A DNA stretch of 64,000 nt from Candidatus Bathyarchaeota archaeon (lineage in GTDB: Archaea; Thermoproteota; Bathyarchaeia; 40CM-2-53-6; RBG-13-38-9), in assembly GCA_963807605.1 (NCBI GenBank), contig CAWECG010000004.1, positions 256,001 through 320,000 on the forward strand. The letters run 5' to 3'. Under the pieces are notes generated by a model that saw only the letters and a program-made list of their open reading frames with translations, was not told where the DNA came from and did not search any database. The first letter of the stretch is position 1, and each line of letters begins with the position of its first letter. A program made the position numbers and the translations under genes. Positions 6,863-48,697 of this stretch are shown in pieces.

Positions 6863-7474
6863 CTACGAACCCTCTGAATGGTCTACCGTTGCATTCTTGA
6901 GTCGGGCATAGTCTTCCTCTCTATCTACGTCGAATAGAATTTCAGGAGAGTCGATTTCAACAATCTCGACATCATTCCTGTGCCTTTCCAGGATTCCTCT
7001 TGCCCCCACATCCCCTGAAAGTGATAGAAGATCGCTCTGGTACTTCCTAGAAATAATGACTGGATGTCCCCTTGCCGATCTATAAGCTAACGTAACGATT
7101 CCCGTGCTGCCCGAGGCGTACCTTCTAATTAGCAAATCGATAATTTCAGTTCTTATCAGTGGTTGATCGGCTAAAGCGAATAGAAAAGCCTCGGTTTCAG
7201 GATTGCTAGAAGTTATTCCACATTTTATGGAAGTACTGATTCCTTCCCTGTACTGTCTGTTCACGACGTATGTGATCCTTGGGTCGCAAGAAGTCAGTGA
7301 ATTCTTCAGCTTCTCGGCGTCATGTCCTAGCACTATTACGAGCTCGTCGATCTTCGAGGCGAGAAGGTTCTTAACAGTCTCTCCGAAGATTGTCGATTTT
7401 CCAAAGCTGAGGAGCTGCTTTGTTCTCCCCATTCTTGTCGATTCGCCAGCAGCTAGCAAGATTGCCGAGATCAA
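6863..7474 (-). CDS. mocA: molybdenum cofactor cytidylyltransferase (MocA/YgfJ family)
   Basis: ILLAAGESTRMGRTKQLL, LADQP, GHPV, GDVGAR and DVD motifs. Confidence 0.85.
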   Translation of the reverse strand: MISAILLAAGESTRMGRTKQLLSFGKSTIFGETVKNLLASKIDELVIVLGHDAEKLKNSLTSCDPRITYVVNRQYREGISTSIKCGITSSNPETEAFLFALADQPLIRTEIIDLLIRRYASGSTGIVTLAYRSARGHPVIISRKYQSDLLSLSGDVGARGILERHRNDVEIVEIDSPEILFDVDREEDYARLKNATVDHSEGS

Positions 7475-7504
7475 GACGACTCTCCATGACAGCAGCTAGC
7501 AATT

Positions 7505-8326
7505 CTATTGTGTAACTTTGGCTAGTCCTTTTGTACTGAGCGTTCTGATGGCTTCAAGGACACCTTCACCGATAATTGCTGAACGTTCGGCTATTAGGAA
7601 ACAACGTTCTTTCTCATCTCTAGGATCGATGTCTCCAAGCTTGAGATTCATTTTCACTATAGACCCGTCACGCATGATCCCTCTCAAAACACCACCGACA
7701 TTTGCTTTGACGTCCAGACCATCAACCATGGCTACGGCTTGACCTGCCTCCACGTGTTCTCCGATCGGCACGATTAGACGTAATGTGCCGTCTTGTGGTG
7801 CCCTTAGGATCCTTTCATGGCTCTTGCCGTTAATTTTGCACGGGGTGCCATGAAAAGACTGGGCAGTTCCATGGTAGTAGGGTTTTCCCAACTCCGGCCC
7901 TTCACTTGTTTCTATGACCGCATGCACGTCTTTTCCGGCTTGAAAACCTGGGCCGAGTCCGATTGTAACAGGTGCGTCACTCAGTTTGGTTCCCGTGTTT
8001 CTTTTGGCCATTATGGCGTCTATGACTATGTTGGGTTTGAGCTTCTTAATGATCTCTGCCTTTGGATCAACAATGATTGGAATTTTGCCCTGCGCTATCG
8101 TGCGATCAATCTCTTCGGGGTTTACCCTCTTTGCCCTCAGGCCCTCAACTTCCCATTCGTTTTCGTAGACAGCTTCAGAAAATGCGACGGCCCTTCTCTC
8201 TGTTGTTGGAGCAGGAATTTCCGTCATGACAATTCGGAAATCCTTTCTGATTAAGGCGTGGGCTACCCCAGTTGCAACATCTCCTGCACCCTTGACGAGG
8301 ACCGTGGGGGTTTTTCTCTTGTTCAT
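7505..8326 (-). CDS. yqeB: selenium-dependent molybdenum cofactor biosynthesis protein YqeB
   Basis: KGAGDVATG, RRAVAFSEA, DAIMAKRNTGT, IGLGPGF and GDIDPR motifs. Start moved to the ATG at 8326, just after the upstream stop. Confidence 0.88.
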   Translation of the reverse strand: MNKRKTPTVLVKGAGDVATGVAHALIRKDFRIVMTEIPAPTTERRAVAFSEAVYENEWEVEGLRAKRVNPEEIDRTIAQGKIPIIVDPKAEIIKKLKPNIVIDAIMAKRNTGTKLSDAPVTIGLGPGFQAGKDVHAVIETSEGPELGKPYYHGTAQSFHGTPCKINGKSHERILRAPQDGTLRLIVPIGEHVEAGQAVAMVDGLDVKANVGGVLRGIMRDGSIVKMNLKLGDIDPRDEKERCFLIAERSAIIGEGVLEAIRTLSTKGLAKVTQ

Positions 8327-8328
8327 TT

Positions 8329-9360
8329 TCAGCCTCTTCCGAAAGGGCATGTGGGGTAGGTACATTCGTTGCACTTCAAGCAGAGTCCACCGTGGCCCAA
8401 GGCAACTATGTCCCTCCGAGTCAAATGTTCCCCCGCTAGAATCCTCGGAAGAACCAAGTCCAGAATGGTTGTGTCATAGTACATCGCGCATGCCGGTATA
8501 CCTAGAAGCGGAGTGCTGTCGAGGTAAGAGATCATGAACATGAATCCGGGTTGAACAGGCGCTCCGTACTTCTCTATTGAGGCATTTGCTTCCAAAGCAC
8601 TGCGTAGGGTTACATCATCAGGATCCACTGCCATGCCTCCTGTGGCGATTATTAGGTCCACGCTTTGCTTTCTCATTTTCGAAATTTCACTTACGATCTT
8701 GTCTGTGTTGTCTGGAACATACACTACCCTCTCTATACTTGAACCAAGTTTTCCGATCTTTCGTTTCATGACGGGGGCAAACTCATCTTTTATGAGGCCG
8801 TTATAGACTTCGTTCCCCGTTATTATCAGGCCTACTCTATTCTTCTTGAGCGGAATAACGTTGACGATGGGACCGGCGTTCTTGCAGATATCCGATACTT
8901 TTCGAATCTTTTCTTCCTGAATTATGAGCGGGAAGATCTTGGCAACCGCTACCCTTTCTCCGGTCTTCACCAGACGGTCTGTGTGTTGTGTGGCGACACC
9001 GAGGCCGTCTATTTCATTTATTTCTTGCAGTCTCTCAACATCTATCTTAAGTATGCCATTCTTCTCTGCCACAATTACGGAACTCCCCTCGTTTGGGCTG
9101 AGTGAGCTCACGTTTTTGCCGGAGATTGCTGCAGCTAGCTTTCGAGCACCGTCTTCTTCGTGAAGTTCCCCTGGTTCGATCTCGAGTATGTATATGTTTT
9201 CTCTACCGATCTTGCGGAGTTCTTTCAAGTCCTTCTTCCGTATTATGTGCCCTTTCTTGAAGAGAGTCCCTTTGAATCTTCCACGTCTGGTTATCCTTGT
9301 AACATCATGACTTAGAACCTTCCCGACAGAATCTCCAAGACTTACTACGATCCTTTTCAA
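8329..9360 (-). CDS. molybdopterin-binding (MoeA-like) protein
   Basis: VLSHDVTRI, TGNEV, TGGMAVDPDDVT, YGAPVQPG motifs and C-terminal GGLCxxCxxCxYPxC. Confidence 0.85.
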   Translation of the reverse strand: MKRIVVSLGDSVGKVLSHDVTRITRRGRFKGTLFKKGHIIRKKDLKELRKIGRENIYILEIEPGELHEEDGARKLAAAISGKNVSSLSPNEGSSVIVAEKNGILKIDVERLQEINEIDGLGVATQHTDRLVKTGERVAVAKIFPLIIQEEKIRKVSDICKNAGPIVNVIPLKKNRVGLIITGNEVYNGLIKDEFAPVMKRKIGKLGSSIERVVYVPDNTDKIVSEISKMRKQSVDLIIATGGMAVDPDDVTLRSALEANASIEKYGAPVQPGFMFMISYLDSTPLLGIPACAMYYDTTILDLVLPRILAGEHLTRRDIVALGHGGLCLKCNECTYPTCPFGRG

Positions 9361-9432
9361 AATCGTTCACACCTCTATGAACTCCAATCATGACTCAGTG
9401 TATCAATTCATGGTGAGCTGGCGTCAATCTCC

Positions 9433-9783
9433 TCAGACAAATTGCTCAACATCCTTCTCCGACGACTGCAAAGCCAGATGTTGAACTATCCTAGTAATCT
9501 TTCTGTTAGTTTCTCCAACAATCCTATAGAGTTGGTACAGTATTCCAAAAAGTATGATGATGGAAAAGCTTGTCACAAATTGTATTGGTGTTGCCATCCC
9601 GAGAGCGGAAGTCACGATAAGATACATTTGCGGGTAAATCCCTGTGAGCATGAGGCCCACCCAGATCGCTGTCCAAACGAGGAATGTCGACAACCCTATG
9701 CTGCCTCTCCTGTATCCTCTGAATGTGTATGCGGCCATTGCGAGGCCCAGTAACACAACGACTAGTCCGTAAGTTTCTAACAT
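9433..9783 (-). CDS. DUF2304 family membrane protein
   Basis: Three TM segments and KITRIVQHLAL tail; typical partner of a GT2 gene. Confidence 0.75.
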   Translation of the reverse strand: MLETYGLVVVLLGLAMAAYTFRGYRRGSIGLSTFLVWTAIWVGLMLTGIYPQMYLIVTSALGMATPIQFVTSFSIIILFGILYQLYRIVGETNRKITRIVQHLALQSSEKDVEQFV

Positions 9784-9808
9784 AGGGAATGATGCCTCCT
9801 GTTTTCGG

Positions 9809-10468
9809 CTACTTAGGGTTTAAGGCGTTATAAAGGATCTTTACTGCGTCGCTAATACCGACTCCCCTCAGGCGTCTCTTGAAGTACAGGGTCTTTATTG
9901 GGACAGCGATTATTCGAAGTTCTTTCTTAGATGAGACAATCAGCATCTCAGAGGCCCAACGGTAGTCTATTGATCCGTGCTTGGCTATCTCGGCAACCTT
10001 ACGGGAAAACGCACGAAACCCCGACTGTGAGTCGTCAATCTTAGTCCCGCAAGCTAGTGAAGTTGCGATTGACAGGGCTTCATTACCGATCCTCTTGTAG
10101 AACGGCATCGCCGAGCTGCCCTTCAACATTCTCGAGCCGATGACTATGTCTGCCTTTTCGTCCAGTAAAGGCGCAATTACCGATGGGATGTCGGTTGGAT
10201 CATGCTGCCCGTCTCCATCAAGGGTCACAATGATGTCGGCGCCGTTGCGTAAAGCCAGAGATAATCCAGTTGAGAGAGCAGCCCCCACACCTAGCCTAGT
10301 TACGTGCCTAGCTACTCTTCCTCCCGCGTCTCTGGCGTTTTTTGCTGTTTTGTCATTACTTCCATCGTCTACAACTAGTACTAGATTACAGTGACTCCTA
10401 GCCTTCTCTACAACTGCTCCTATGGTTGATTCTTCATTGAAGGCTGGGATAACACAGACTACTCGCAC
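9809..10468 (-). CDS. glycosyltransferase family 2 (polyprenol-phosphate glycosyltransferase-like)
   Basis: IPAFNEE, VVDDGS, DGDGQHDP and DSQSGFRA motifs. Confidence 0.92.
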   Translation of the reverse strand: MRVVCVIPAFNEESTIGAVVEKARSHCNLVLVVDDGSNDKTAKNARDAGGRVARHVTRLGVGAALSTGLSLALRNGADIIVTLDGDGQHDPTDIPSVIAPLLDEKADIVIGSRMLKGSSAMPFYKRIGNEALSIATSLACGTKIDDSQSGFRAFSRKVAEIAKHGSIDYRWASEMLIVSSKKELRIIAVPIKTLYFKRRLRGVGISDAVKILYNALNPK

Positions 10469-10548
10469 TCAGAAGCACCGGTCTCTTATATTATCGAAAT
10501 AGTCGGAGGCAACGAGACCTTCGAAACACTCATTCCAGAAAAAGATTC

Positions 10549-10556
10549 CTATTTCT
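10549..10556. repeat. 8-bp target duplication/spacer CTATTTCT, copy 1 (others at 14456-14463 and 18483-18490)
   Basis: Identical 8-mer directly abutting terminal inverted repeats at all three positions. Confidence 0.9.
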
Positions 10557-10741
10557 GGCTTTGTCAAGTCTCCGTCGGTTCGGTTAGTTCTAGGCGGCTG
10601 TCAAAAGTCGTCGGCTACTGCAAGGTGAACTAGGTTTTGAATGACACAGAACTAGAACAGAAAATCGTACTACTTGAGAGAAGAATAAAAAGGCTGGAAA
10701 ACCGTTCCAAAGATGAGTTCATATTCCGAGCGTTTGTTGGA

Positions 10742-11623
10742 CTACTGTTCCTTCTCTTCTTGCTTCTCATTGCGTTTCGCTAGTTTCTTCTTGATTTGGT
10801 TGTAAAACTCTATATCCGAACCCCAGATCGAAGGAATGACTTGAAACAAAAGAAAGTAAGCCCCTATTCCTATGGCTCCAAGGGCAAACAATGGATTATA
10901 GACAACATCATTGATAATGAGATAAATCGGGTTTTGACTGGTTTCAACTGTGATCGAGACGGTTGTTGTGGCGAGATATCTTGTGACAAAGCTAGGACTT
11001 GTAGGTGTTAGTACATTCGCTGATACGTGGTCGCCCATCCCTATCGAGTCACTGATTGTGGGCTTGAACGCCATGTGATTGGGTATTTGATTCACGTCTT
11101 GTTGGTATATGAATTGGGCTGCATCTTTGGCATTTATAAAGTAGTCACCTGAAATGTCAGCCGTGAGTACAAAGAGAATCAGGGGAACTTCTATTTTTGA
11201 GTTGGCGTAGGTTAAGACGTTCTTTTCCAGTAGGACGTATTTGCCTAGAGTGGCGAATTGGTAGGGGAAGAGGTTGTTGAATGTATCATTGTAATCCATC
11301 ACAACATTTGGTCGGTTTGATTGAATTGTGGCAAATATCAACGCGACATGATCGGAGTTGTACGGCGAAGATTGTAGAACGACTACTTGGAAGGAATGTT
11401 GTACATCGTGGTATAGTGTAAGATTTTCCTTTATACTATCGAAATCTGGTCTGTTGATATAAGTTGAGTTCTTTAAGAGTTCGTTGTAGCTGTCTATTAG
11501 ATTGAGTACATATCCCACAGTTTTGTTGTGTTCTGGCAGCCTGTATTGAGCGAGGACTTTTCCTTGAATGCTAGAGAACATTAATAACACAAGGAATAAA
11601 GTGAGGATGGTTACTTTTCTCAA
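10742..11623 (-). CDS. hypothetical secreted, membrane-anchored protein (cargo)
   Basis: Signal-like N-terminus LRKVTILTLFLVLLMF from the TTG at 11623; C-terminal TM segment and charged tail. Confidence 0.6.
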   Translation of the reverse strand: MRKVTILTLFLVLLMFSSIQGKVLAQYRLPEHNKTVGYVLNLIDSYNELLKNSTYINRPDFDSIKENLTLYHDVQHSFQVVVLQSSPYNSDHVALIFATIQSNRPNVVMDYNDTFNNLFPYQFATLGKYVLLEKNVLTYANSKIEVPLILFVLTADISGDYFINAKDAAQFIYQQDVNQIPNHMAFKPTISDSIGMGDHVSANVLTPTSPSFVTRYLATTTVSITVETSQNPIYLIINDVVYNPLFALGAIGIGAYFLLFQVIPSIWGSDIEFYNQIKKKLAKRNEKQEEKEQ

Positions 11624-11633
11624 ACATGATTGA

Positions 11634-11783
11634 TCAGTCAACCAGATTCTTTCCCTTGAAATATTCCCCAAGCACAGCACGGACGGTTTCTGGAATAGTT
11701 TCTAGTTTACGTGATTTCCTTTCGATCTCTAGTGCCTTAACCATTTCGTCTGACATACTCACCATTATCTTTTGCATTGGCAT
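11634..11783 (-). CDS. ribbon-helix-helix (CopG-like) regulator, 49 aa
   Basis: Hand translation MPMQKIMVSMSDEMVKALEIERKSRKLETIPETVRAVLGEYFKGKNLVD*; clearly homologous to the N-terminus of 16412-16879. Below the ORF-track cutoff. Confidence 0.8.
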   Translation of the reverse strand: MPMQKIMVSMSDEMVKALEIERKSRKLETIPETVRAVLGEYFKGKNLVD

Positions 11784-11793
11784 ATCGATGACA

Positions 11794-11854
11794 CTACCAT
11801 TAGATACCTATAACAACCTTTATAAATCTGTTGCTACTAGATATCTAATGGTAG
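11794..11854. promoter_or_regulatory. divergent promoter/operator of unit 1
   Basis: Perfect 13-bp inverted repeat CTACCATTAGATA (11794-11806) / TATCTAATGGTAG (11842-11854) around the palindromic TATA box TTTATAAA (11819-11826). Confidence 0.75.
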
Positions 11855-11864
11855 CGATTGGAAT

Positions 11865-13016
11865 ATGCGAACCGAGAAGCCTGTTGATGAAGGTCGTTTG
11901 ATGAGAGGACAACAAATAGCGAAGCTAGATCATCAAATCAAACGGCTAGATGACAAAACCTACCAAGTCAACTCACAGTCAGGTCACGGCTTATACACAG
12001 TGGTTAAGGGTTATCGTGATTGGCGTTGCAGTTGCCCCGACCACATGTACCGAGAATTGAAGTGCAAGCATATTTGGGCAATCGAGTTTAGCCTCAAATT
12101 AAGGGATAGGGTAAGAGAAAACGTTGTAATTCAACCTGTCACAATTAACACATGTCTGTACTGTCAATCCAAGGACATAATCAGAGATGGCTTACGACAT
12201 AACAAGTGTGGAGACATTCAGGTTTTCAACTGTAAATCTTGTGGTCGATACTTCACATTAAACCTCGGCTTCGAGCACATGAAACATAATCCGCATGGAA
12301 TCACAACAGCCATGCAACTGTACTTCTCAGGGGAGAGCCTCCGCAACACAGCTAGGTCGCTACGCTTGATGGGAGTTCAGGTTAGCTATCAGACTGTATG
12401 GAATTGGATTCAGAAGTACACGACTCTGATGGAGAAGTATCTGGACAAGATCACGCCTCAAGTTTCTGAGGTTTGGCGAGCAGATGAACTCTACGTGAAG
12501 ATTCGAGGCAATATGAAGTATGTCTTTGCCATGATGGATGATGAGACACGCTTCTGGATAGCTCAGGAAGTTGCGAGTAGCAAGGAAGCGCATGATGCAA
12601 GAAACTTATTCCAGATGGCTAGGGAGAGAGTGGGAAAGAAGCCTCAGATTCTAGTAACAGACGGCTTACGCTCTTATCATGATGCTTGGTTGAAAGAGTA
12701 CCGAACCAATAGGTTAGCTGATAGTACCATTCACATCCACAATATCACACTTGAAGGAACCCACCATAACAACAAGATGGAACGCTTCAACGGCGAAGTC
12801 AGAGACAGAGAGAAAGTTATGCGAGGACTGAAGAAACCTGATACGCCGATTCTGAAGGGTTATCAGATATTCCATAACTACGTAAGACCGCATGAAGGAT
12901 TAGAAGGTAAGACCCCTGCCGATGTGGCGGGAATCAAGGTTGAGGGAGAAAACAAGTGGGTCACACTAATCCAAAACGCAAGTCGTCTCCCGAAGGTTGA
13001 CAGCAGAAGCCCCTAG
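11865..13016 (+). CDS. IS6-like DDE transposase with N-terminal SWIM and C4 Zn-ribbon domains
   Basis: CSCPDH..CKH (SWIM), CxxC..CxxC, HTH region, WRADELY / VTDGL / NNKMER catalytic triad, HNYVRPHEGL.GKTPA tail. Confidence 0.92.
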   Translation: MRTEKPVDEGRLMRGQQIAKLDHQIKRLDDKTYQVNSQSGHGLYTVVKGYRDWRCSCPDHMYRELKCKHIWAIEFSLKLRDRVRENVVIQPVTINTCLYCQSKDIIRDGLRHNKCGDIQVFNCKSCGRYFTLNLGFEHMKHNPHGITTAMQLYFSGESLRNTARSLRLMGVQVSYQTVWNWIQKYTTLMEKYLDKITPQVSEVWRADELYVKIRGNMKYVFAMMDDETRFWIAQEVASSKEAHDARNLFQMARERVGKKPQILVTDGLRSYHDAWLKEYRTNRLADSTIHIHNITLEGTHHNNKMERFNGEVRDREKVMRGLKKPDTPILKGYQIFHNYVRPHEGLEGKTPADVAGIKVEGENKWVTLIQNASRLPKVDSRSP

Positions 13017-13107
13017 ATCATCTAGTTGAAGGAACCAGAATTCCCACTAGATTCTAGAAAGAACATACTGTGAAAACTTAAAATCTTGGGACTTTAATCA
13101 TTTTTGA

Positions 13108-13383
13108 GTGATTTCTTTGGAACTTGCAAGGATGATCTATGATGTCATGAGGATACTAGATGAAGCTACGAAATTTGTTAACAAGAAGATCAGCGACTCA
13201 AGAGACGATCATGAAAGACAATGCTACGAGGATTATAGGAAGCACATAAGGGAACTTGGCACGTCTGTCTATACGTTGATAGGTAAGATGAGAATGGACA
13301 GAATACTAGATCCCAAAGAAGTGGAAATGCTGGAGCAGATGGGAGCAATGGGTCTCCAAATAGCGGAGGAGCCAATTGCATGA
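13108..13383 (+). CDS. hypothetical protein (cargo)
   Basis: 91-aa helical-looking ORF; ATGA overlap with the next gene. Confidence 0.55.
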   Translation: MISLELARMIYDVMRILDEATKFVNKKISDSRDDHERQCYEDYRKHIRELGTSVYTLIGKMRMDRILDPKEVEMLEQMGAMGLQIAEEPIA

Positions 13384-13604
13384 GTTCGACAGATAAATTC
13401 AAGAATGCTGTTGAAAATGCGAAGAATTTTCTTTCCGTGCAGGGAGGGTTCTATTCTACATTTCTCCAACTAAAGGAAGTTGTTGAATCTGACAACAAAT
13501 GGATCATAAAATTCGACTATACTGCGTTTACTGAAACAGCAGTACTTCAAGTAGATGTTGACATGGAAAAGGGAGAAATAGTCGGTTTCAGGCGTGTAGG
13601 ATAA
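13380..13604 (+). CDS. small hypothetical protein, PepSY-like pattern (cargo)
   Basis: AVENAKNFL...WIIKF...VDVDMEKGEIV pattern. Confidence 0.55.
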   Translation: MSSTDKFKNAVENAKNFLSVQGGFYSTFLQLKEVVESDNKWIIKFDYTAFTETAVLQVDVDMEKGEIVGFRRVG

Positions 13605-13672
13605 TCATTGAAGAGCGGGAGTAACACTGACTAGCCAGAGGGCGTGTTGAGACAGCTCTATTGTGATGAAGA

Positions 13673-14218
13673 ATGTCCGAGTCGAATGCAGCCATAGCTG
13701 GTGCAGTTGTTGGTGGCATTATCGCCATATGTGGAAGCGTTGTATTCTATTTCGTAACTCATAGAGCCGAGTATAGGGAACTTAAAGACCGTTCGCTAAA
13801 AGACCTGATTGCAGAACTTAAGCAGAACAAACGGTATCAACTCAGAAATCATTACATTGACCTAGAAGACAGTGCGTACAAACGACTTAGAGAAGGCGGA
13901 TTTTTTCATACGTTTTCCAATGATTTGCAAAGCGACTTACAGGAACTCTATGCTTTCATTCACGAAAAAAACGGATTGATTGCTTACTACAATAGTGTTG
14001 GTGCAATTGGCTTGGCAGAGTCAAAAAATCTGAGCGCAAACTTTCTTCCACCGTGGAACGCTGCGCAGAGTAAGGCGCTTGGCGACATTTTAGGCATCAT
14101 CAAAAGTAAAGAAGAAAAAATCGCCTCGTTGATTGATAAAATCCTTCCCGCCCTTAGAAATCTGCTTAGAGACCCAATCACTAGCAAAGAGACCCAATCC
14201 CAATCACTAGCAAACTAA
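13673..14218 (+). CDS. hypothetical protein with N-terminal TM segment (cargo)
   Basis: AIAGAVVGGIIAICGSVVFYF followed by a helical soluble region. Confidence 0.6.
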   Translation: MSESNAAIAGAVVGGIIAICGSVVFYFVTHRAEYRELKDRSLKDLIAELKQNKRYQLRNHYIDLEDSAYKRLREGGFFHTFSNDLQSDLQELYAFIHEKNGLIAYYNSVGAIGLAESKNLSANFLPPWNAAQSKALGDILGIIKSKEEKIASLIDKILPALRNLLRDPITSKETQSQSLAN

Positions 14219-14233
14219 CTTCTACAACTCGGC

Positions 14234-14355
14234 AACTTAACAGAACCCTCATTTGTATTTTTTCGCGTCCCGCCACTTGACACCCTAACTCTCATTCAGA
14301 GCGCAAGTCCCAACACGTAACAGGGAGAAGCATGTCCTATGAACGTAACAGAACC
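14234..14355 (-). repeat. nested internal IS-end motifs inside unit 1
   Basis: AACTTAACAGAACC (14234-14247), GTCCCGCCACTTGACACCCT (~14267-14286), GTCCCAACACGTAACAG (~14307-14323) and AACGTAACAGAACC (14342-14355), all in right-end orientation. Confidence 0.75.
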
Positions 14356-14455
14356 CGTTGCTGAATACCAACTTCTCAAGGCATTAACTGAGCCAAACCG
14401 ATGAAAGTTGACAACAAGGAGAAACTAAGGCAACCGACGCAGACTTGACAGAACC

Positions 14456-14463
14456 CTATTTCT
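14456..14463. repeat. CTATTTCT spacer, copy 2 (unit 1 / unit 2 junction)
   Basis: Junction reads TTGACAGAACC-CTATTTCT-GGTTCTGTTAA. Confidence 0.9.
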
Positions 14464-14737
14464 GGTTCTGTTAAGTTGAAGGCTCATTCATTGTCTTTGT
14501 TTAGGTTTTCTAGGCTGTTAACCGTCAGCCCTTTTCGTTATCCCAGTTGGAGGTGTCATTCCAGCGGTGTCATATATGCGTACTAGGAGACCTCTTACTT
14601 TTCGTCAAATACTTGCCTTGATCGGAGGTAGCTTAATTCTTGGAAGTATTACGGTAGTCCTTTTTGTGTCCAACCACATTGCTGCGACATACTTCATGGC
14701 GTACAATACCACAGCGTACGGTGTGATATTACTAGAT

Positions 14738-15166
14738 CTATTCAAGGAGAAGCCTGAGAATCATAACCGACACAATGAGAGTTAGAATAATGCCCGCTAC
14801 CCTCACAACTGCGTCAAGAAGTGGCGAGACAGCAAGAGGAGGAAATAGGTATTCACAGACATAATCTAACATAAGGCCAGGGATAATCCCCACTTGGAAT
14901 GCAATTCCGGCAATGAATGCGATTCGCGCCCCGTTAGTACACTCCCTAGCAACTGATGAGGGTATCCAATCATCTGAAACTCCAAGTGCCATCAGCAAGA
15001 CATACGCACTCCAATATGCCATCAAGAAAGCTACCAGAGATCTAAGATGTAGCCCGCCAAATAAAGTAACATCGAAGAGATCCCGGATTGCTAATAGCGT
15101 TCCAAGAACACCGAGTACGAATATGCCTCGAATTTCCTCTCTAACAAGTTGGGAGTTTTCTTTCAT
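14738..15166 (-). CDS. hypothetical multi-pass membrane protein (cargo)
   Basis: About four hydrophobic segments; co-oriented with and directly downstream of transposase 2. Confidence 0.55.
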   Translation of the reverse strand: MKENSQLVREEIRGIFVLGVLGTLLAIRDLFDVTLFGGLHLRSLVAFLMAYWSAYVLLMALGVSDDWIPSSVARECTNGARIAFIAGIAFQVGIIPGLMLDYVCEYLFPPLAVSPLLDAVVRVAGIILTLIVSVMILRLLLE

Positions 15167-15195
15167 GAATAATTGTTACGCAATCGGAAGGTATT

Positions 15196-16323
15196 TCATT
15201 GTTTGCTTGCGTTCTGGATTATTGTCAGCCACTTGTTCTGTCCTTTGATTTCTATTCCCGCTGCTTCTGCTGGCGTTTTGCCGTCTAACCCTTCATGTGG
15301 ACGAACATAGTTATGGTAGATTTGATAACCTTTGAGAATTGGTGTATCTACGTTCTTCAGGCCCCGCATGACCTTCTCTCTGTCTCTGATTTCACCGTTG
15401 AGCCGTTCCATCTTATTGTTGTGGTGTGTGCCAGCTAACGTAGTGTGGCTAATATGGGTCGTACTAGTCTCTAGCTGGTTAGTTCTGAATTCCTTCATGT
15501 AGGCTTCATGGTAAGATCGTAAACCGTCAGTTATGAGAATCTTGGGCTTCTTCTCCGTCACTTCTTTACCAATCTGGAATAGGTGCCTCACATCATGTGC
15601 ATATTTTGAATCAGCCACTTCCTGAGCAATCAGGAATCTTGTTTGGTCGTCCATCAGCGCGAATAGGTATTTCATGTTGCCCTTGATTTTAATGTACAAC
15701 TCATCAGATCGCCAAGTGCCTGAAACTTGTGGTGTTATCTTGTCTAGGTACTTCTCCATCAGACCCGTGTATTTCTCTATCCACTTGTAGACAGCAACAT
15801 GCGAAACCTGAACACCTTGAAGCCTCAAGAATTTCTGAACATTCCGTAGTGATTCTCCTGTGAAATATAGTTGCATGGCTGAAGTGATCGTTTGTGGAGT
15901 AGCTTTCATTCGTTCAAAGCCCAAATTGATCACAAACCACTTTCCACAGTCCTTGCACATGTACCGTTGAATGTTTCCACTTAGGTTATGGCGTAACCCA
16001 TGTCTCACGATATTCTGAGAGGCACAAGAGATGCAGACTTGTGTGTCGAGAGGTTTGATTACTACTTGGTTGCTGACTTCGGCTCGTAGTGCTTGCGAGA
16101 ATTCGACAGCCCAAATATGCTTACACTTAACCTCACGATAGATATGGTCGGGGCAACTGCAATCCCAACCTCGACCACGCTTAACAACTGAGTAGAATCC
16201 TTGACCTGATTGTGAGGTTACTTGGTAGGTCTTCTCATCTAGACGTTTCACTTGATTCCCAATTTTGACTATTGCTTGAGCCTTCATTACGCGGCTTTCG
16301 GATAGGGGTTGTTCGGTTCTCAT
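15196..16323 (-). CDS. IS6-like DDE transposase with SWIM and Zn-ribbon domains, second diverged copy
   Basis: Colinear with 11865-13016 (roughly two-thirds identical by eye); WRSDELY / ITDGL / NNKMER intact. Confidence 0.92.
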   Translation of the reverse strand: MRTEQPLSESRVMKAQAIVKIGNQVKRLDEKTYQVTSQSGQGFYSVVKRGRGWDCSCPDHIYREVKCKHIWAVEFSQALRAEVSNQVVIKPLDTQVCISCASQNIVRHGLRHNLSGNIQRYMCKDCGKWFVINLGFERMKATPQTITSAMQLYFTGESLRNVQKFLRLQGVQVSHVAVYKWIEKYTGLMEKYLDKITPQVSGTWRSDELYIKIKGNMKYLFALMDDQTRFLIAQEVADSKYAHDVRHLFQIGKEVTEKKPKILITDGLRSYHEAYMKEFRTNQLETSTTHISHTTLAGTHHNNKMERLNGEIRDREKVMRGLKNVDTPILKGYQIYHNYVRPHEGLDGKTPAEAAGIEIKGQNKWLTIIQNASKQ

Positions 16324-16339
16324 GTGAATACATCTGTTG

Positions 16340-16402
16340 CTATTGATATCAATAGATACTACACAAGTTATTTATAAGAGTTGTGGCTATTGATATCAAT
16401 AG
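16340..16402. promoter_or_regulatory. divergent promoter/operator of unit 2
   Basis: Two identical 16-bp palindromes CTATTGATATCAATAG (16340-16355, 16387-16402) flanking TTTATAAG (16371-16378). Confidence 0.8.
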
Positions 16403-16411
16403 GTATCGAAC

Positions 16412-16879
16412 TTGGGTATGAAGCGATTCATGCTCTCAATAACTGAAGAAATGGAGAACGCACTTGACAGAGAGCGAGAGAAGCGGATGCTTGGATCGAT
16501 ACCAGAGACGGCAAGAGTAATTCTAGGTGAGTATTTGACAAAGGTTGATCCACTAACTCCAATGGTAATCGGTGATTTCTACTTCGAATTTGGAGAAATC
16601 GAGGATGTAATGAGAGTAGCTGCATTCGTAACCCCCAACAAGCCAAACATCCTATCAAAGCCGATTCCAAATGAAACTACGCGTATAAACAGACTGAAGA
16701 AATTGTTCAGTGATCTCGCAAGACTACAACCGTACAAAGTAGAAACTGGGCAAGTGGAGATGATATTGGCTCAAGGAACGCAAGTGGATGTTCCAGCAAT
16801 CAGAGCCAACCTCTCAAAAAAAGACAAAACGGAAATGACAATGAAAGAAGTTGTAGACCTAATTGGAAAACATCTCTAA
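16412..16879 (+). CDS. RHH-domain regulator fused to an unknown C-terminal domain
   Basis: MKRFMLSITEEMENALDREREKRMLGSIPETARVILGEY aligns with the unit-1 RHH; about 110 extra residues follow. Confidence 0.75.
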   Translation: MGMKRFMLSITEEMENALDREREKRMLGSIPETARVILGEYLTKVDPLTPMVIGDFYFEFGEIEDVMRVAAFVTPNKPNILSKPIPNETTRINRLKKLFSDLARLQPYKVETGQVEMILAQGTQVDVPAIRANLSKKDKTEMTMKEVVDLIGKHL

Positions 16880-17327
16880 GAGGCAATGCCTTGCCAACAA
16901 AGCGAGAGAACGAAGGCGCTATGCTTAAAGATCATATCCAGAATGTTTACCCATGTCACACAGGATTGTGTGACAAAGTAACAAAGAAGAAATATGACTG
17001 TCAAGAGATGTCCATGCGACGGAAGTCCATTGTCTTTCAAAGTTTACTGCCCGCAGTGTGGACACGACCATTTGCTCTAGCAAATTCCCCTATTCTTCTC
17101 GTGAGTGGTCTGCCCTCCTCACCCAGTCTGATCTGAATGCAGGTGAAGCAGGAATGGTATGAAGTCAGTGGCGGACTTACACCAATTCTGTTGCACAACA
17201 TGATTTAGACGAATGGGGCGTCTACGAACTGATTTCGCCATAACGAGACGATATAGCGCACGCTAGAGCCGAAGACGCAAACGATTAAATATGGATTAGA
17301 AAAAAACAATTCTAACGGCTTTATTCT

Positions 17328-18188
17328 ATGCTACAACGGAGTCACAATGATGTTGTACGGAGTCACAATGATGTTGTACGGAGTCACAATGATGTTGTAC
17401 GGAGTCACAATGATGTTATACGTAATTTGCTTGTGTTATTTCTGATTGTATTGCTCCTCCCAATTATTGTAAATCCTGCTCACCCGGATTCGCAGTATAT
17501 TCTTCATGTTCAGACGCCTATCGGCGAGTTCGTTACCATATCTTATAGTGGAGACTATGTCGGCTCCAACAGCACACCTTTCACTATCGGCCCTAAATCC
17601 GCCCCTTTCACTGTAACATTGACGGCTCCCTCAAAATACGTCGATCAGGTGTTGGAGGGTTGGATTCTTGATGGTGTGAGTATGGGAAATTCAAATACAT
17701 CAACAGTCACGGTAAACGAGAATCATAGCGAGAGGGTAGCTGCAGCTGGCTATGTTACTAATTTCGCGGTCGTTGAATGGGTTAGTTTTAGCAGCACTCC
17801 TATAATCGACGTTCCCATGAATTCGGGCGCGACTTACTATACCCCTTTTTACAGAACGGGCGTCCCCTTGGGGGTACACGCTAGTGTAACTGCTCCTCTC
17901 ACCTACAGAGGTTACACTTTTAATGGCTGGCTCGCTGACGGGCTCTGGATTCCTACCCCATCAATAAGTCTCTATGCGATTGGCGTCAATGAATCTAGAT
18001 CGGCTACAGCGTACTATTCGCTTATCACACCACCAAGCGCCCAAACAAGACCGGTCGGCGGCGTCGTGGAACCCGTCAACAAACTCACACTTTTCACACC
18101 ATACTTGGCCGTCTTTGGAGTGGTCGCGGCTGTTGCAGTCGTCATCGTCACGGATAGGAAACGCAGAGAACTCACAAATAGTCAGTGA
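17328..18188 (+). CDS. secreted/surface protein with repeated beta-rich domains and C-terminal PVGG-TM anchor (cargo)
   Basis: Signal segment, two repeats of the type VTLTAP...F/LxGWxxDG, C-terminal PVGGVVEPVNKL-TM-RKRR. Confidence 0.7.
   Translation: MLQRSHNDVVRSHNDVVRSHNDVVRSHNDVIRNLLVLFLIVLLLPIIVNPAHPDSQYILHVQTPIGEFVTISYSGDYVGSNSTPFTIGPKSAPFTVTLTAPSKYVDQVLEGWILDGVSMGNSNTSTVTVNENHSERVAAAGYVTNFAVVEWVSFSSTPIIDVPMNSGATYYTPFYRTGVPLGVHASVTAPLTYRGYTFNGWLADGLWIPTPSISLYAIGVNESRSATAYYSLITPPSAQTRPVGGVVEPVNKLTLFTPYLAVFGVVAAVAVVIVTDRKRRELTNSQ
17336..17422 (+). repeat. 21-bp tandem repeat x4 (ACGGAGTCACAATGATGTTGT)
   Basis: Three perfect copies plus one with a single mismatch; encodes (RSHNDVV)n. Confidence 0.95.
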
Positions 18189-18482
18189 GCTGATTTCGGA
18201 ATCCCTGCTGGTTTTGTGTGTACCTTAGCTGGCGAGAGCATCTAGAAATCAAATTCACTTTGCGCCGAGCGTAAATTGGTCATAACTATTCGTATCAATT
18301 ATTGCGTATTTAAGCCCCCCACAAGTAACCCTGCCGAGAAGGGTTCCTAAATTAGCTGTCAAGCTACTGGAAATCCCTATGGGGAATCTCCCGAACTTGA
18401 CAGAACCCTCCGATGAGCCGACGGTTAACAGCCCAAAAAACCCAGTCGATTTCCAAGCATGAGCCGATATCTTAACAGAACC

Positions 18483-18490
18483 CTATTTCT
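18483..18490. repeat. CTATTTCT spacer, copy 3 (unit 2 / unit 3 junction)
   Basis: Junction reads TTAACAGAACC-CTATTTCT-GGTTCTGTCAA. Confidence 0.9.
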
Positions 18491-18689
18491 GGTTCTGTCA
18501 AATTGACGGGAACATAAGCAGCCGTCAGTTAGGGTGTCACCTGGCGGGACATGAAAAGGTTCTGAGGTTCTGGTAACATCACGTCTTCGACTACCTAATA
18601 GTGTTGTAACAAATCGGGTTGATTCTGATTCAGAACGCAAGTCAAAAGTAGTAAGTGGCTTAAACATATGCCCCGAGAGGTGAGAGAAT

Positions 18690-48573: not shown

Positions 48574-48697
48574 CCGAATCTTGAGACGGGTATCTTGTCA
48601 GGTCTACAAATTTAAAAGACTATCTCGGTTGTTTCTGTCAAGTTTGTTGGGGCTAGTTCTAGGTATGTCTTCTGTTTCTTTAGTGTCAGGGCTGTCT

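What the first reader, a model, noticed from the sequence alone, without database searches (positions are those of the whole stretch)
12990..14455. Nested relic ends between cargo genes suggest stepwise cargo capture
Seen, all in right-end orientation within unit 1: an inner-type site at 12990-13004 (revcomp GCTGTCAACCTTCGG) and a degenerate end TAGTTGAAGGAACC (13023-13036) right after the transposase; a weak motif near 13618-13631 between cargo genes; and near-perfect ends at 14234-14247 and 14342-14355 before the final end at 14455. Unit 2 also has an internal AACTTGACAGAACCCTC (18394-18410), matching 14234-14250 at 16/17. Inference: elements grow by skipping their own end and using the next end in the array, taking the neighbour's cargo. 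The array would then act as a cargo-exchange platform.
Basis: partly seen in the sequence, partly recalled or inferred. Interest (0 to 1): 0.72.

Follow-up and report, generated by a model that had tools for sequence, protein, structure and literature searches.

The report
Fossil transposon ends inside archaeal IS6-like element

Summary
The observation largely holds. The internal right-end copies at 14247, 14355 and 18407 score like working ends: 20-23 bits, against 0.12 such hits expected inside the two units. The site pair at 12985-13036, just after the transposase stop, is a degenerate two-part end. The motif at 13618-13631 is noise.

Unit 1 (10557-14455) and unit 2 (14464-18482) are IS6-family cargo transposons. 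Each has a perfect 8-bp target duplication, CTATTTCT.

Family ends are two-part and fall into specificity classes that co-vary with the transposase zinc-finger and HTH regions. Unit 1's working pair, 10557 and 14455, is GTCGG class, as is its HTH segment. The fossils are foreign or defective:
- R1 is GGGAGA class, matching the lineage of the catalytic half of a mosaic transposase.
- R3 is GGGAC class, like unit 3.
- R2 has no inner repeat.

The last 100 bp of unit 1 hold the 3' stump of an RNaseH-like passenger gene that sibling elements keep whole. Homology breaks exactly at the R3 terminus.

Best reading: nested insertions near ends, with loss of the guests' left halves. Outward end-skipping stays a live rival. 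Abutted (8-9 bp) and stacked (56-108 bp) ends recur in other archaeal genomes. This is a new variant of a known kind, of moderate interest.

The parts
10549..10556 (.). First copy of the 8-bp target duplication CTATTTCT. The other two copies are at 14456-14463 and 18483-18490.
   Evidence: Three identical copies flank units 1 and 2.
10557..10633 (+). Working left end of unit 1. It is two-part and GTCGG class, with an outer and an inner repeat.
   Evidence: nhmmer E = 1.2e-5. PWM score 20.5 bits. Best match among all local ends is 14455, at 43 of 64 positions.
11865..13016 (+). Unit 1 transposase, 383 aa: an IS240/IS6-type DDE domain with SWIM and zinc-ribbon N-terminal extension. It is a mosaic. 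Residues about 60-195 are of GTCGG-class lineage. Residues 15-60 and 195-300 are of GGGAGA-class lineage.
   Evidence: Pfam PF13610 at 4e-16 and a weak SWIM match. Sliding-window identities.
12985..13036 (-). Fossil end R1. The inner repeat (12990-13006) overlaps the transposase C-terminal codons, and the degenerate outer repeat ends at 13036. It is GGGAGA/GGGTGA class.
   Evidence: Related fossils follow the transposase in C1 and L041. DNA homology to the C1 copy stops at 12984.
13108..14218 (+). Cargo ORFs at 13108-13383, 13380-13604 and 13673-14218, with no family assignment. The 181-aa ORF has homologues at 55-68% identity.
   Evidence: The only homologue whose surroundings could be fetched lies in a metagenome contig with no family end or transposase within 8 kb.
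14228..14247 (-). Fossil end R2. Only the outer repeat is present; there is no inner repeat, and its class is unclear.
   Evidence: PWM score 22.8 bits. The whole-end model does not recover it at E <= 10. Sequence inspected.
14256..14355 (-). Fossil end R3 module, GGGAC class. It has three repeats plus six relic transposase 3' codons at 14291-14309.
   Evidence: nhmmer E = 0.0019, full length. 76% identical to the end at C4:642779. Positions 14260-14290 match 18527-18557 at 27 of 31, and these are the only two copies in the genome.
14356..14455 (-). Working right-end module of unit 1, GTCGG class. It includes the last 15 codons and stop (14357-14404) of an RNaseH-like passenger gene.
   Evidence: 94% identical to C2:55090-55189, with the break exactly at 14355/14356. 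The whole gene is in C2:55159-55797 and L041:3293-3937.
14464..18482 (.). Unit 2, GGCTCA-class ends, with its transposase at 15196-16323 on the minus strand. It is flanked by CTATTTCT on both sides.
18382..18407 (-). Fossil end inside unit 2, GGGAGAT class, 75 bp inside unit 2's terminus at 18482.
   Evidence: PWM score 20.3 bits. It resembles the inner part of the ends at C3:76493 and C3:442647 and of L041's outermost end.
18491..18577 (+). Unit 3 left end, GGGAC class, followed by a stacked second left-end core at 18558-18577. The rest of unit 3 is a remnant running to about 19.4 kb.
   Evidence: In G002 the two genes flanking the array lie about 250 bp apart, against 9.1 kb here.

Best explanation
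The internal motifs are fossil termini of other members of the same IS6-like archaeal transposon family. They lie in the cargo slot between the transposase gene and the working right end of a GTCGG-class element.

Shown:
- Unit 1 last moved as the whole 10557-14455 unit, because it has a perfect 8-bp target duplication.
- Its two working ends are a matched class pair, and they match the transposase HTH segment.
- R1 and R3 belong to other specificity classes, and R2 lacks the inner repeat.
- The right-end module holds the stump of an RNaseH-like passenger gene, cut exactly at the R3 terminus.
- Family members in several genomes sit exactly 8-9 bp outside each other's ends. Same-orientation ends also stack 56-108 bp apart.

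Inferred:
- Relatives inserted just inside the resident right end, bringing their own cargo.
- The guests' left halves were then lost, by recombination between the two transposase genes (which would explain the mosaic transposase and R1) or by deletion driven from an end.
- The host's matched ends kept moving the whole patchwork.

On this reading cargo builds up by nesting from within, not by the element reaching outward.
For: - Target duplications: CTATTTCT occurs three times. 43 of 64 left/right end pairs in the family carry 8-9 bp duplications, for element sizes of 0.64-5.6 kb, 2.3-5.6 kb for single units that carry a full transposase.
- Two-part ends and specificity classes: see the alignment. 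Within an element the two ends share nt 11-28 (alignment score 9.4, against 0.0 between elements). End similarity tracks the zinc-finger region (r = 0.27) and the HTH region (r = 0.36, p = 5e-4), but not the catalytic domain (r = 0.07).
- Unit 1's left end matches 14455 best. The same left/right subtypes occur in C1:3420-7748 and L044.
- The transposase is a mosaic: HTH 91% to L044 but catalytic 62%; catalytic 73-75% to L082, L043 and L041, whose working ends are GGGAGA class. R1's inner repeat is GGGAGA class.
- Passenger-gene stump, with the homology break exactly at the R3 terminus.
- R3 is a full end of another class.
- No left-end relic and no matching 8-mer partner for any fossil.
- 13 abutted end pairs with 8-9 bp spacers. 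Arrays with the same spacer three times also occur in L030, L092 and L036. Stacked ends recur in L041, L104, L031 and at C3:453079.
Against: - No intact guest with both ends and its own target duplication is preserved inside unit 1. Three left halves must therefore all have been lost, which a one-sided capture process would explain more simply.
- The family shows a right-side bias. By my hand count from the maps, about 12 stacked or internal ends lie on the transposase 3' side and about 3 on the 5' side. Gene fragments are 64 3'-fragments against 2 5'-fragments. Both hint at a directional process.
- R2 shares the TTAGTT spacer with unit 1's working ends, so it could be an older own end.
- In L041 the passenger-gene module begins right at the post-transposase end, as capture would predict.
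- The Mantel tests ignore shared ancestry among the elements.
- No binding or transposition was measured.
Confidence: 0.5

Rival explanations
1. An element ending at an inner end (R1, then R2, then R3) lay inside or next to other family members. Its transposase passed over its own damaged or mismatched right end and paired the left end with the next usable right end. The DNA in between became cargo.
For: - The fossils are one-sided: four right-facing ends and one left end.
- R2 lacks an inner repeat, so it would be a poor end. It also shares the TTAGTT spacer with 10557 and 14455.
- R1 is the old right end of most of the transposase gene's lineage and is now bypassed.
- In L041 the passenger module starts 2-3 nt after the post-transposase end, and in C2 the same module stands without a transposase.
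- The family has a right-side and 3'-fragment bias.
- A homologue of the 181-aa cargo gene sits in a context with no family element, which fits capture of ordinary DNA.
Against: - 14455 is not a newly reached neighbour's end. It is the matched class partner of 10557 and of the HTH segment, and the same pairing occurs in C1 and L044.
- R3 is a foreign class, not unit 1's own.
- No 8-bp spacer plus left-end relic follows any fossil, as skipping into an abutted array neighbour would leave.
- No shorter sibling ending at an inner end was found in this genome. The only metagenome contig that could be fetched showed none either.
Confidence: 0.28
2. The internal copies are working accessory binding sites for the transposase, like the multiple sub-terminal sites of Tn7 or Mu. 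On this view they help assemble the right end.
For: True ends in this family already hold two repeats each. The internal copies cluster within about 210 bp of termini and point the same way.
Against: - They belong to different specificity classes from the working ends.
- R3 carries relic transposase codons.
- None is conserved in the closest relative, C1:3420-7748.
- Most elements with target duplications have no such extra sites.
Confidence: 0.05
3. The internal motifs are chance matches to a short consensus.
For: 13618-13631 is at background level. The outer part of R1 is weak when taken alone.
Against: Three internal hits of 20 bits or more against 0.12 expected. 14301-14355 is recovered as a full end at genome-wide E = 0.0019. 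Homology breaks fall exactly at termini.
Confidence: 0.02

Closest known systems
IS6/IS26 family insertion sequences, especially the zinc-finger 'clade h' (Varani et al. 2021, PMC7986276)
   Same: An IS240/IS6-type DDE transposase (PF13610), terminal repeats starting GGTTCTG, and 8-bp target duplications. Like clade h, the transposase has an N-terminal zinc-finger extension. Insertion is biased towards resident copies, and arrays form.
   Different: - Size: known members are 0.8-0.9 kb, or up to about 1.5-1.8 kb in clades h and i, and are filled almost entirely by the transposase gene. The review lists a single member with a passenger gene. These elements are 2.3-5.6 kb, with several passenger genes on both sides.
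- Ends: they are two-part and fall into specificity classes.
- Hosts: Bathyarchaeia, Nitrososphaeria and Methanoperedens.
- Arrays: they consist of different elements abutted at 8-9 bp, each with its own target duplication, not identical IS copies sharing segments.
IS26 targeted conservative cointegration, and insertion of IS911 and IS30 next to inverted repeats
   Same: An incoming end is joined to the flank of a resident end. This places elements right beside each other at a spacing equal to the target-duplication length (PMC7986276).
   Different: Here the partners are diverged elements (67% amino-acid identity) of different end classes. The 8-bp flank is duplicated again, giving T-A-T-B-T, so the event looks like ordinary duplicative insertion aimed at the flank. 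IS26's targeted route makes no duplication and needs identical reacting ends. The mechanism was not tested here.
ISEcp1/IS1380-type one-ended capture, in which the right end is skipped and a surrogate end is used
   Different: This is a different transposase family. The internal ends here are true family termini with two-part structure, not weak surrogate sequences. No set of sibling units sharing a left end but ending at different right ends was found.
Nested ('Russian doll') transposon insertions and non-autonomous deletion derivatives
   Same: Ends of several elements stack in the same orientation. The outermost matched pair, with its target duplication, defines the mobile unit (L041 and unit 1). 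Derivatives without a transposase but with their own duplications exist, for example C1:184871-185712 and L120.
   Different: In unit 1 only the right halves of the guests survive. The stacking distance is narrow (56-108 bp), which suggests targeting just inside a resident end rather than random nesting.

Membership tests
IS6/IS26 family | DDE transposase of the IS240/IS26 type | tested here: met
   PF13610 at 4.2e-16 and 2.6e-15 for the two transposases.
IS6/IS26 family | Short terminal inverted repeats starting GG(T/C)TCTG | tested here: met
   The alignment of 37 ends shows the core GGTTCTGTYAAGT.
IS6/IS26 family | 8-bp target site duplication | tested here: met
   43 of 64 end pairs have 8-bp (a few 9-bp) duplications, including both units in the window.
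IS6/IS26 family | Compact element (about 0.8-1.8 kb) filled by a single transposase gene | tested here: not met
   Single units with target duplications and a full transposase are 2.3-5.6 kb, with passenger ORFs on both sides. The review gives 789-880 bp as typical and lists one member with a passenger gene.
IS6/IS26 family | Replicative copy-in transposition through cointegrates | not testable with these tools
   This needs a transposition assay.
Transporter IS (tIS): an IS with passenger genes inside its inverted repeats | Passenger genes lie between the inverted repeats, and the whole unit is flanked by one target duplication | tested here: met
   Units 1 and 2 are each flanked by CTATTTCT and carry 3-5 non-transposase ORFs.
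One-ended / end-skipping capture units (ISEcp1-like behaviour) | Sibling units share the left end and transposase, end at different right ends, and each has its own target duplication | tested here: inconclusive
   No sibling of unit 1 ending at 13036, 14247 or 14355 exists in this genome.
IS26-type pseudo-compound transposon or translocatable-unit array | Identical IS copies in direct repeat, shared between neighbouring segments, with no duplication at targeted joins | tested here: not met
   The units are different elements (transposases 67% identical, opposite orientation). Each has its own end pair, and the 8-bp flank is re-duplicated.
Nested transposon insertion | A guest element with both ends and its own target duplication lies inside the host | tested here: not met
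   No left-end partner or matching 8-mer exists for R1, R2, R3 or 18407. Only right halves remain, so nesting is inferred rather than shown.

The most novel reading that the evidence does not exclude
These archaeal IS6-like elements form an end-guided cargo accretion system. Their transposases aim insertions at the DNA just outside (8 bp) and just inside (about 60-100 bp) resident family ends. A swappable zinc-ribbon/HTH segment re-assigns which end class a transposase uses. Together these would let elements take over each other's ends and cargo in a directional way. That would explain the arrays, the stacked fossils, the mosaic transposases and the 64:2 excess of 3' fragments. It would work like an integron-style gene-gathering platform built from a DDE transposon.
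Probability: 0.2. Interest if true: 0.75.

Novelty: new variant of a known kind. Interest (0 to 1): 0.5.

Why it matters
IS6/IS26 elements drive gene gathering in bacteria, but they are known as minimal elements that move cargo only in pairs. Here a widespread archaeal branch carries cargo inside its own ends. It is found in Bathyarchaeia, ammonia-oxidising Nitrososphaeria and Methanoperedens.

These elements insert precisely beside each other's ends. Their fossil ends record how their cargo was assembled. Together with the mosaic transposase, the fossils give a testable handle on two questions. The first is how end specificity is set and switched in this family. The second is how ORFan and surface-protein genes spread among uncultured archaea.

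If the internal ends turn out to be plain debris of nested insertions, this finding is ordinary transposon archaeology in an unusual family.

Tried and rejected
- Target-duplication partners. I searched units 1-2 and their flanks for the 8-mers that follow each fossil terminus. None was found except the shared CTATTTCT.
- Left-end relics upstream of the transposase. PWM and nhmmer scans found none above 5 bits between 10557 and 13000.
- Cargo attached to other transposases. The 181-aa ORF has one weak hit among 105 genomes of the same order. It has 9 homologues in the large protein collection. Context could be fetched for only one, a metagenome contig with no family end or transposase within 8 kb.
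- A joint translation of 13108-13604 failed because the two ORFs are in different frames. It was not repeated.
- The left end of the C2:55090 element, as a test of whether unit 1's backbone is its sibling. The only candidate, C2:61335, is of another class, so the test was uninformative.
- A local rearrangement that would derive R3 from unit 3's missing right end. I found no simple deletion or inversion path that fits all the junctions, so it stays a lead only.
- A nested guest in L030 (14972-15942). Its two ends match in class, but it has no target duplication.
- Accessory-site and chance explanations were rejected for the strong motifs, as set out under the rival explanations.
Full report
**What is there.** The window is G000:C4:256001-320000 of a 2.65-Mb, 47% GC archaeal genome. 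Close relatives of its transposase come mostly from Bathyarchaeia, Nitrososphaerales/Nitrosopumilales and Methanoperedens assemblies. Two transposase genes lie at 11865-13016 (+) and 15196-16323 (-), 67% identical. Each has an IS240/IS6-type DDE domain and a SWIM/zinc-ribbon N-terminal extension. The ends have the classic IS6 core GGTTCTGTYAAGT. Unit 1 is 10557-14455 and unit 2 is 14464-18482. A third left end starts at 18491. All three junctions carry the same 8-bp CTATTTCT. Each unit therefore has a perfect target duplication and last moved as a whole, with the internal motifs and cargo included. In a genome of the same family (G002), the two genes flanking the array are about 250 bp apart, against 9.1 kb here.

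**Checking the observation.** I trained a 20-nt PWM on 32 family ends from outside this array.
- Internal copies: 22.8 bits (14247), 20.5 bits (14355) and 20.3 bits (18407). Working ends score 17-31 bits.
- Such scores occur at about 7e-6 per position, so 0.12 hits are expected inside the two units; three are seen.
- A model of the whole end recovers 14301-14355 at E = 0.0019 over its full length, although that site was not in the seed.
- The site after the transposase stop is weak in its outer part (-0.3 bits). Its inner repeat scores 9.0 bits, and none of 1340 shuffles reached 6 bits. Related fossils follow the transposase in C1:5298-6419 and in L041.
- 13618-13631 is at background level (-16.5 bits).

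**How the ends are built.** True ends are two-part. An outer repeat is followed 28-45 nt further in by an inner repeat. The 3' half of the repeat is shared between the outer and inner copies and between the two ends of one element, but it differs between sub-families: GTCGG, GGGTGA/GGGAGA, GGGAC, GGCTCA and GGTTGA. I compared 30 elements that have target duplications and a full transposase.
- The two ends of one element share nt 11-28 with an alignment score of 9.4, against 0.0 between elements.
- End similarity tracks the zinc-finger region (Mantel r = 0.27) and the HTH region (r = 0.36, p = 5e-4).
- It does not track the catalytic domain (r = 0.07).
- These tests ignore shared ancestry, so the contrast between domains matters more than the p-values.

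**Which ends belong to unit 1.** Among all local ends, the left end at 10557 matches 14455 best, at 43 of 64 positions. The same left and right subtypes occur in the closest relative, C1:3420-7748 (transposase 90% identical). They also occur in L044 from another genome, which has its own target duplication.

The transposase is a mosaic.
- Residues about 60-195 (second zinc ribbon and HTH) are 73-93% identical to L044, a GTCGG-class element.
- Residues 15-60 and 195-300 are 70-87% identical to L082 and L043; L041 tracks them less closely over 240-285. The working ends of all three are GGGAGA class.

R1's inner repeat is GGGAGA class. R1 therefore looks like the old right end of the lineage that gave most of the gene. 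It would have been left unusable once the DNA-binding segment and both working ends became GTCGG class. R3 (14256-14355) is GGGAC class, with three repeats and six relic transposase 3' codons. It is 76% identical to the end at C4:642779, and its third repeat matches the unit-3 left end at 27 of 31 positions. These are the only two copies in the genome. R2 has only an outer repeat.

**The right-end module.** The last 100 bp of unit 1 are 94% identical to C2:55090-55189. Homology breaks exactly at the R3 terminus, 14355/14356. This module contains the last 15 codons of an RNaseH-like gene (weak PF13482 match). The gene is whole next to the matching end in C2:55159-55797 and in L041:3293-3937, and the two copies are 89% identical in protein although they come from different genomes. 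Unit 1's ancestor therefore most likely carried this gene in the slot beside its right end, and the gene was cut by a junction made at the R3 terminus. In L041, homology to C2 begins 2-3 nt after the end that follows the transposase. Fossil termini thus mark module boundaries in at least three comparisons. The third is the break at 12984 against the C1 copy.

**Family habits.** I examined the genome plus 92 related loci.
- 43 of 64 left/right end pairs carry 8-9 bp duplications. Element sizes run from 0.64 to 5.6 kb, and single units with a full transposase are 2.3-5.6 kb.
- Thirteen end pairs abut back-to-back with 8-9 bp spacers. Three further arrays repeat the window's T-A-T-B-T pattern with the same spacer three times: L030 (TGCCGCGA), L092 (CGCATTAG) and L036.
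- Ends of the same orientation stack 56-108 bp apart, just inside the two-part end of the outer element. This is seen in the window, at C3:453079/453154, and in L041, L104 and L031.
- L041's outermost pair has its own duplication, CTTGGCGG, around two further layers of ends.
- Decayed transposase copies are almost all 3' fragments: 64 against 2 overall, and 9 against 0 in this genome alone.

**Interpretation.** The strong internal motifs are fossil termini, not chance and not accessory sites. They are of foreign classes, one carries gene relics, and the closest relative lacks them.

The reading I favour (confidence 0.5) is that relatives inserted just inside the resident right end and brought cargo. 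Their left halves were then lost, by recombination between transposase genes or by deletion from an end. The GTCGG backbone kept moving the patchwork.

- For it: it explains the one-sidedness and the family's right-side bias more simply. R1 is indeed a bypassed ancestral end.
- Against it: 14455 is the matched partner of 10557 and of the HTH segment. No 8-bp spacer plus left-end relic follows any fossil. No shorter sibling was found.

A homologue of the 181-aa cargo gene lies in a metagenome contig with no family element nearby. The gene is therefore not confined to these elements, but this does not separate the two models.

**Comparison with known systems.** The IS6 review (PMC7986276) describes elements of about 0.8-0.9 kb. 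It also describes zinc-finger transposases in Clostridia (clade h), a single member with a passenger gene, and IS26's targeted route beside resident copies, compared there with IS911 and IS30 targeting of inverted repeats. A survey of mobile elements in Thaumarchaeota treats insertion sequences as 1-2 gene elements (PMC6563490). The present family meets the IS6 tests for transposase type, end core and 8-bp duplication. It fails the test for compact size. It adds two-part class-specific ends, multi-gene cargo, re-duplication of the flank next to a resident end, and stacked fossils.

**Limits.**
- No binding or transposition data exist.
- The order of events inside unit 1 is inferred.
- Earlier notes of this scan on the same stretch describe the array, the multi-site ends and the R3/unit-3 match. 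I checked those points here with tools, and they hold.

Noticed in passing
Family-wide: own genome plus loci L030-L121: Decayed transposase copies are almost always 3' fragments, 64 against 2 5' fragments (9 against 0 in this genome alone). This suggests a directional truncation or hitch-hiking process. No mechanism was established.
   Followed up: partly
window 11865-13016, compared with L044, L082, L043 and L041: The unit 1 transposase is a mosaic. The zinc-ribbon/HTH segment (residues about 60-195) comes from a GTCGG-class lineage and the rest from a GGGAGA-class lineage. This looks like a swapped end-specificity cassette.
   Followed up: partly
G000:C2:55159-55797 and L041:3293-3937: An RNaseH-like passenger gene is 89% identical in protein (91% in DNA) between two different genomes, while the associated transposases are far more diverged. 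This suggests recent horizontal spread of that module.
   Followed up: partly
L030 (G052:C37) 7227-16182; also L092 and L036: Independent arrays in other genomes have the same 8-9 bp spacer repeated three times (T-A-T-B-T), as in the window. Insertion exactly beside a resident end is therefore a family habit.
   Followed up: yes
window 17315-17440: Four to five tandem 21-bp repeats lie at the 5' end of the 286-aa ORF 17328-18188, encoding a repeated heptapeptide ahead of a hydrophobic segment.
   Followed up: no
window 14169-14212: An imperfect tandem duplication of about 26 bp lies in the 3' end of the 181-aa cargo ORF, just inside fossil end R2, where an inner repeat would be expected.
   Followed up: no
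window 48631-48650: A solitary left-end-like site scores 18.7 bits and resembles the end at C4:588174. It lies far from any transposase in the window.
   Followed up: no
window 11777-11871 and 16335-16405: Palindromic repeats lie between a divergent ribbon-helix-helix gene and the transposase start in units 1 and 2. The small protein is shared by units 1 and 2, but no match was found in C1:3420-7748 or C4:158106-160975.
   Followed up: partly
window 14260-14290 and 18527-18557: These are the only two copies in the genome of this end lineage (27 of 31 identical, in inverted orientation), and they lie 4.2 kb apart in the same array. This hints at local exchange between units 1 and 3, but I could not reconstruct a path.
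   Followed up: partly
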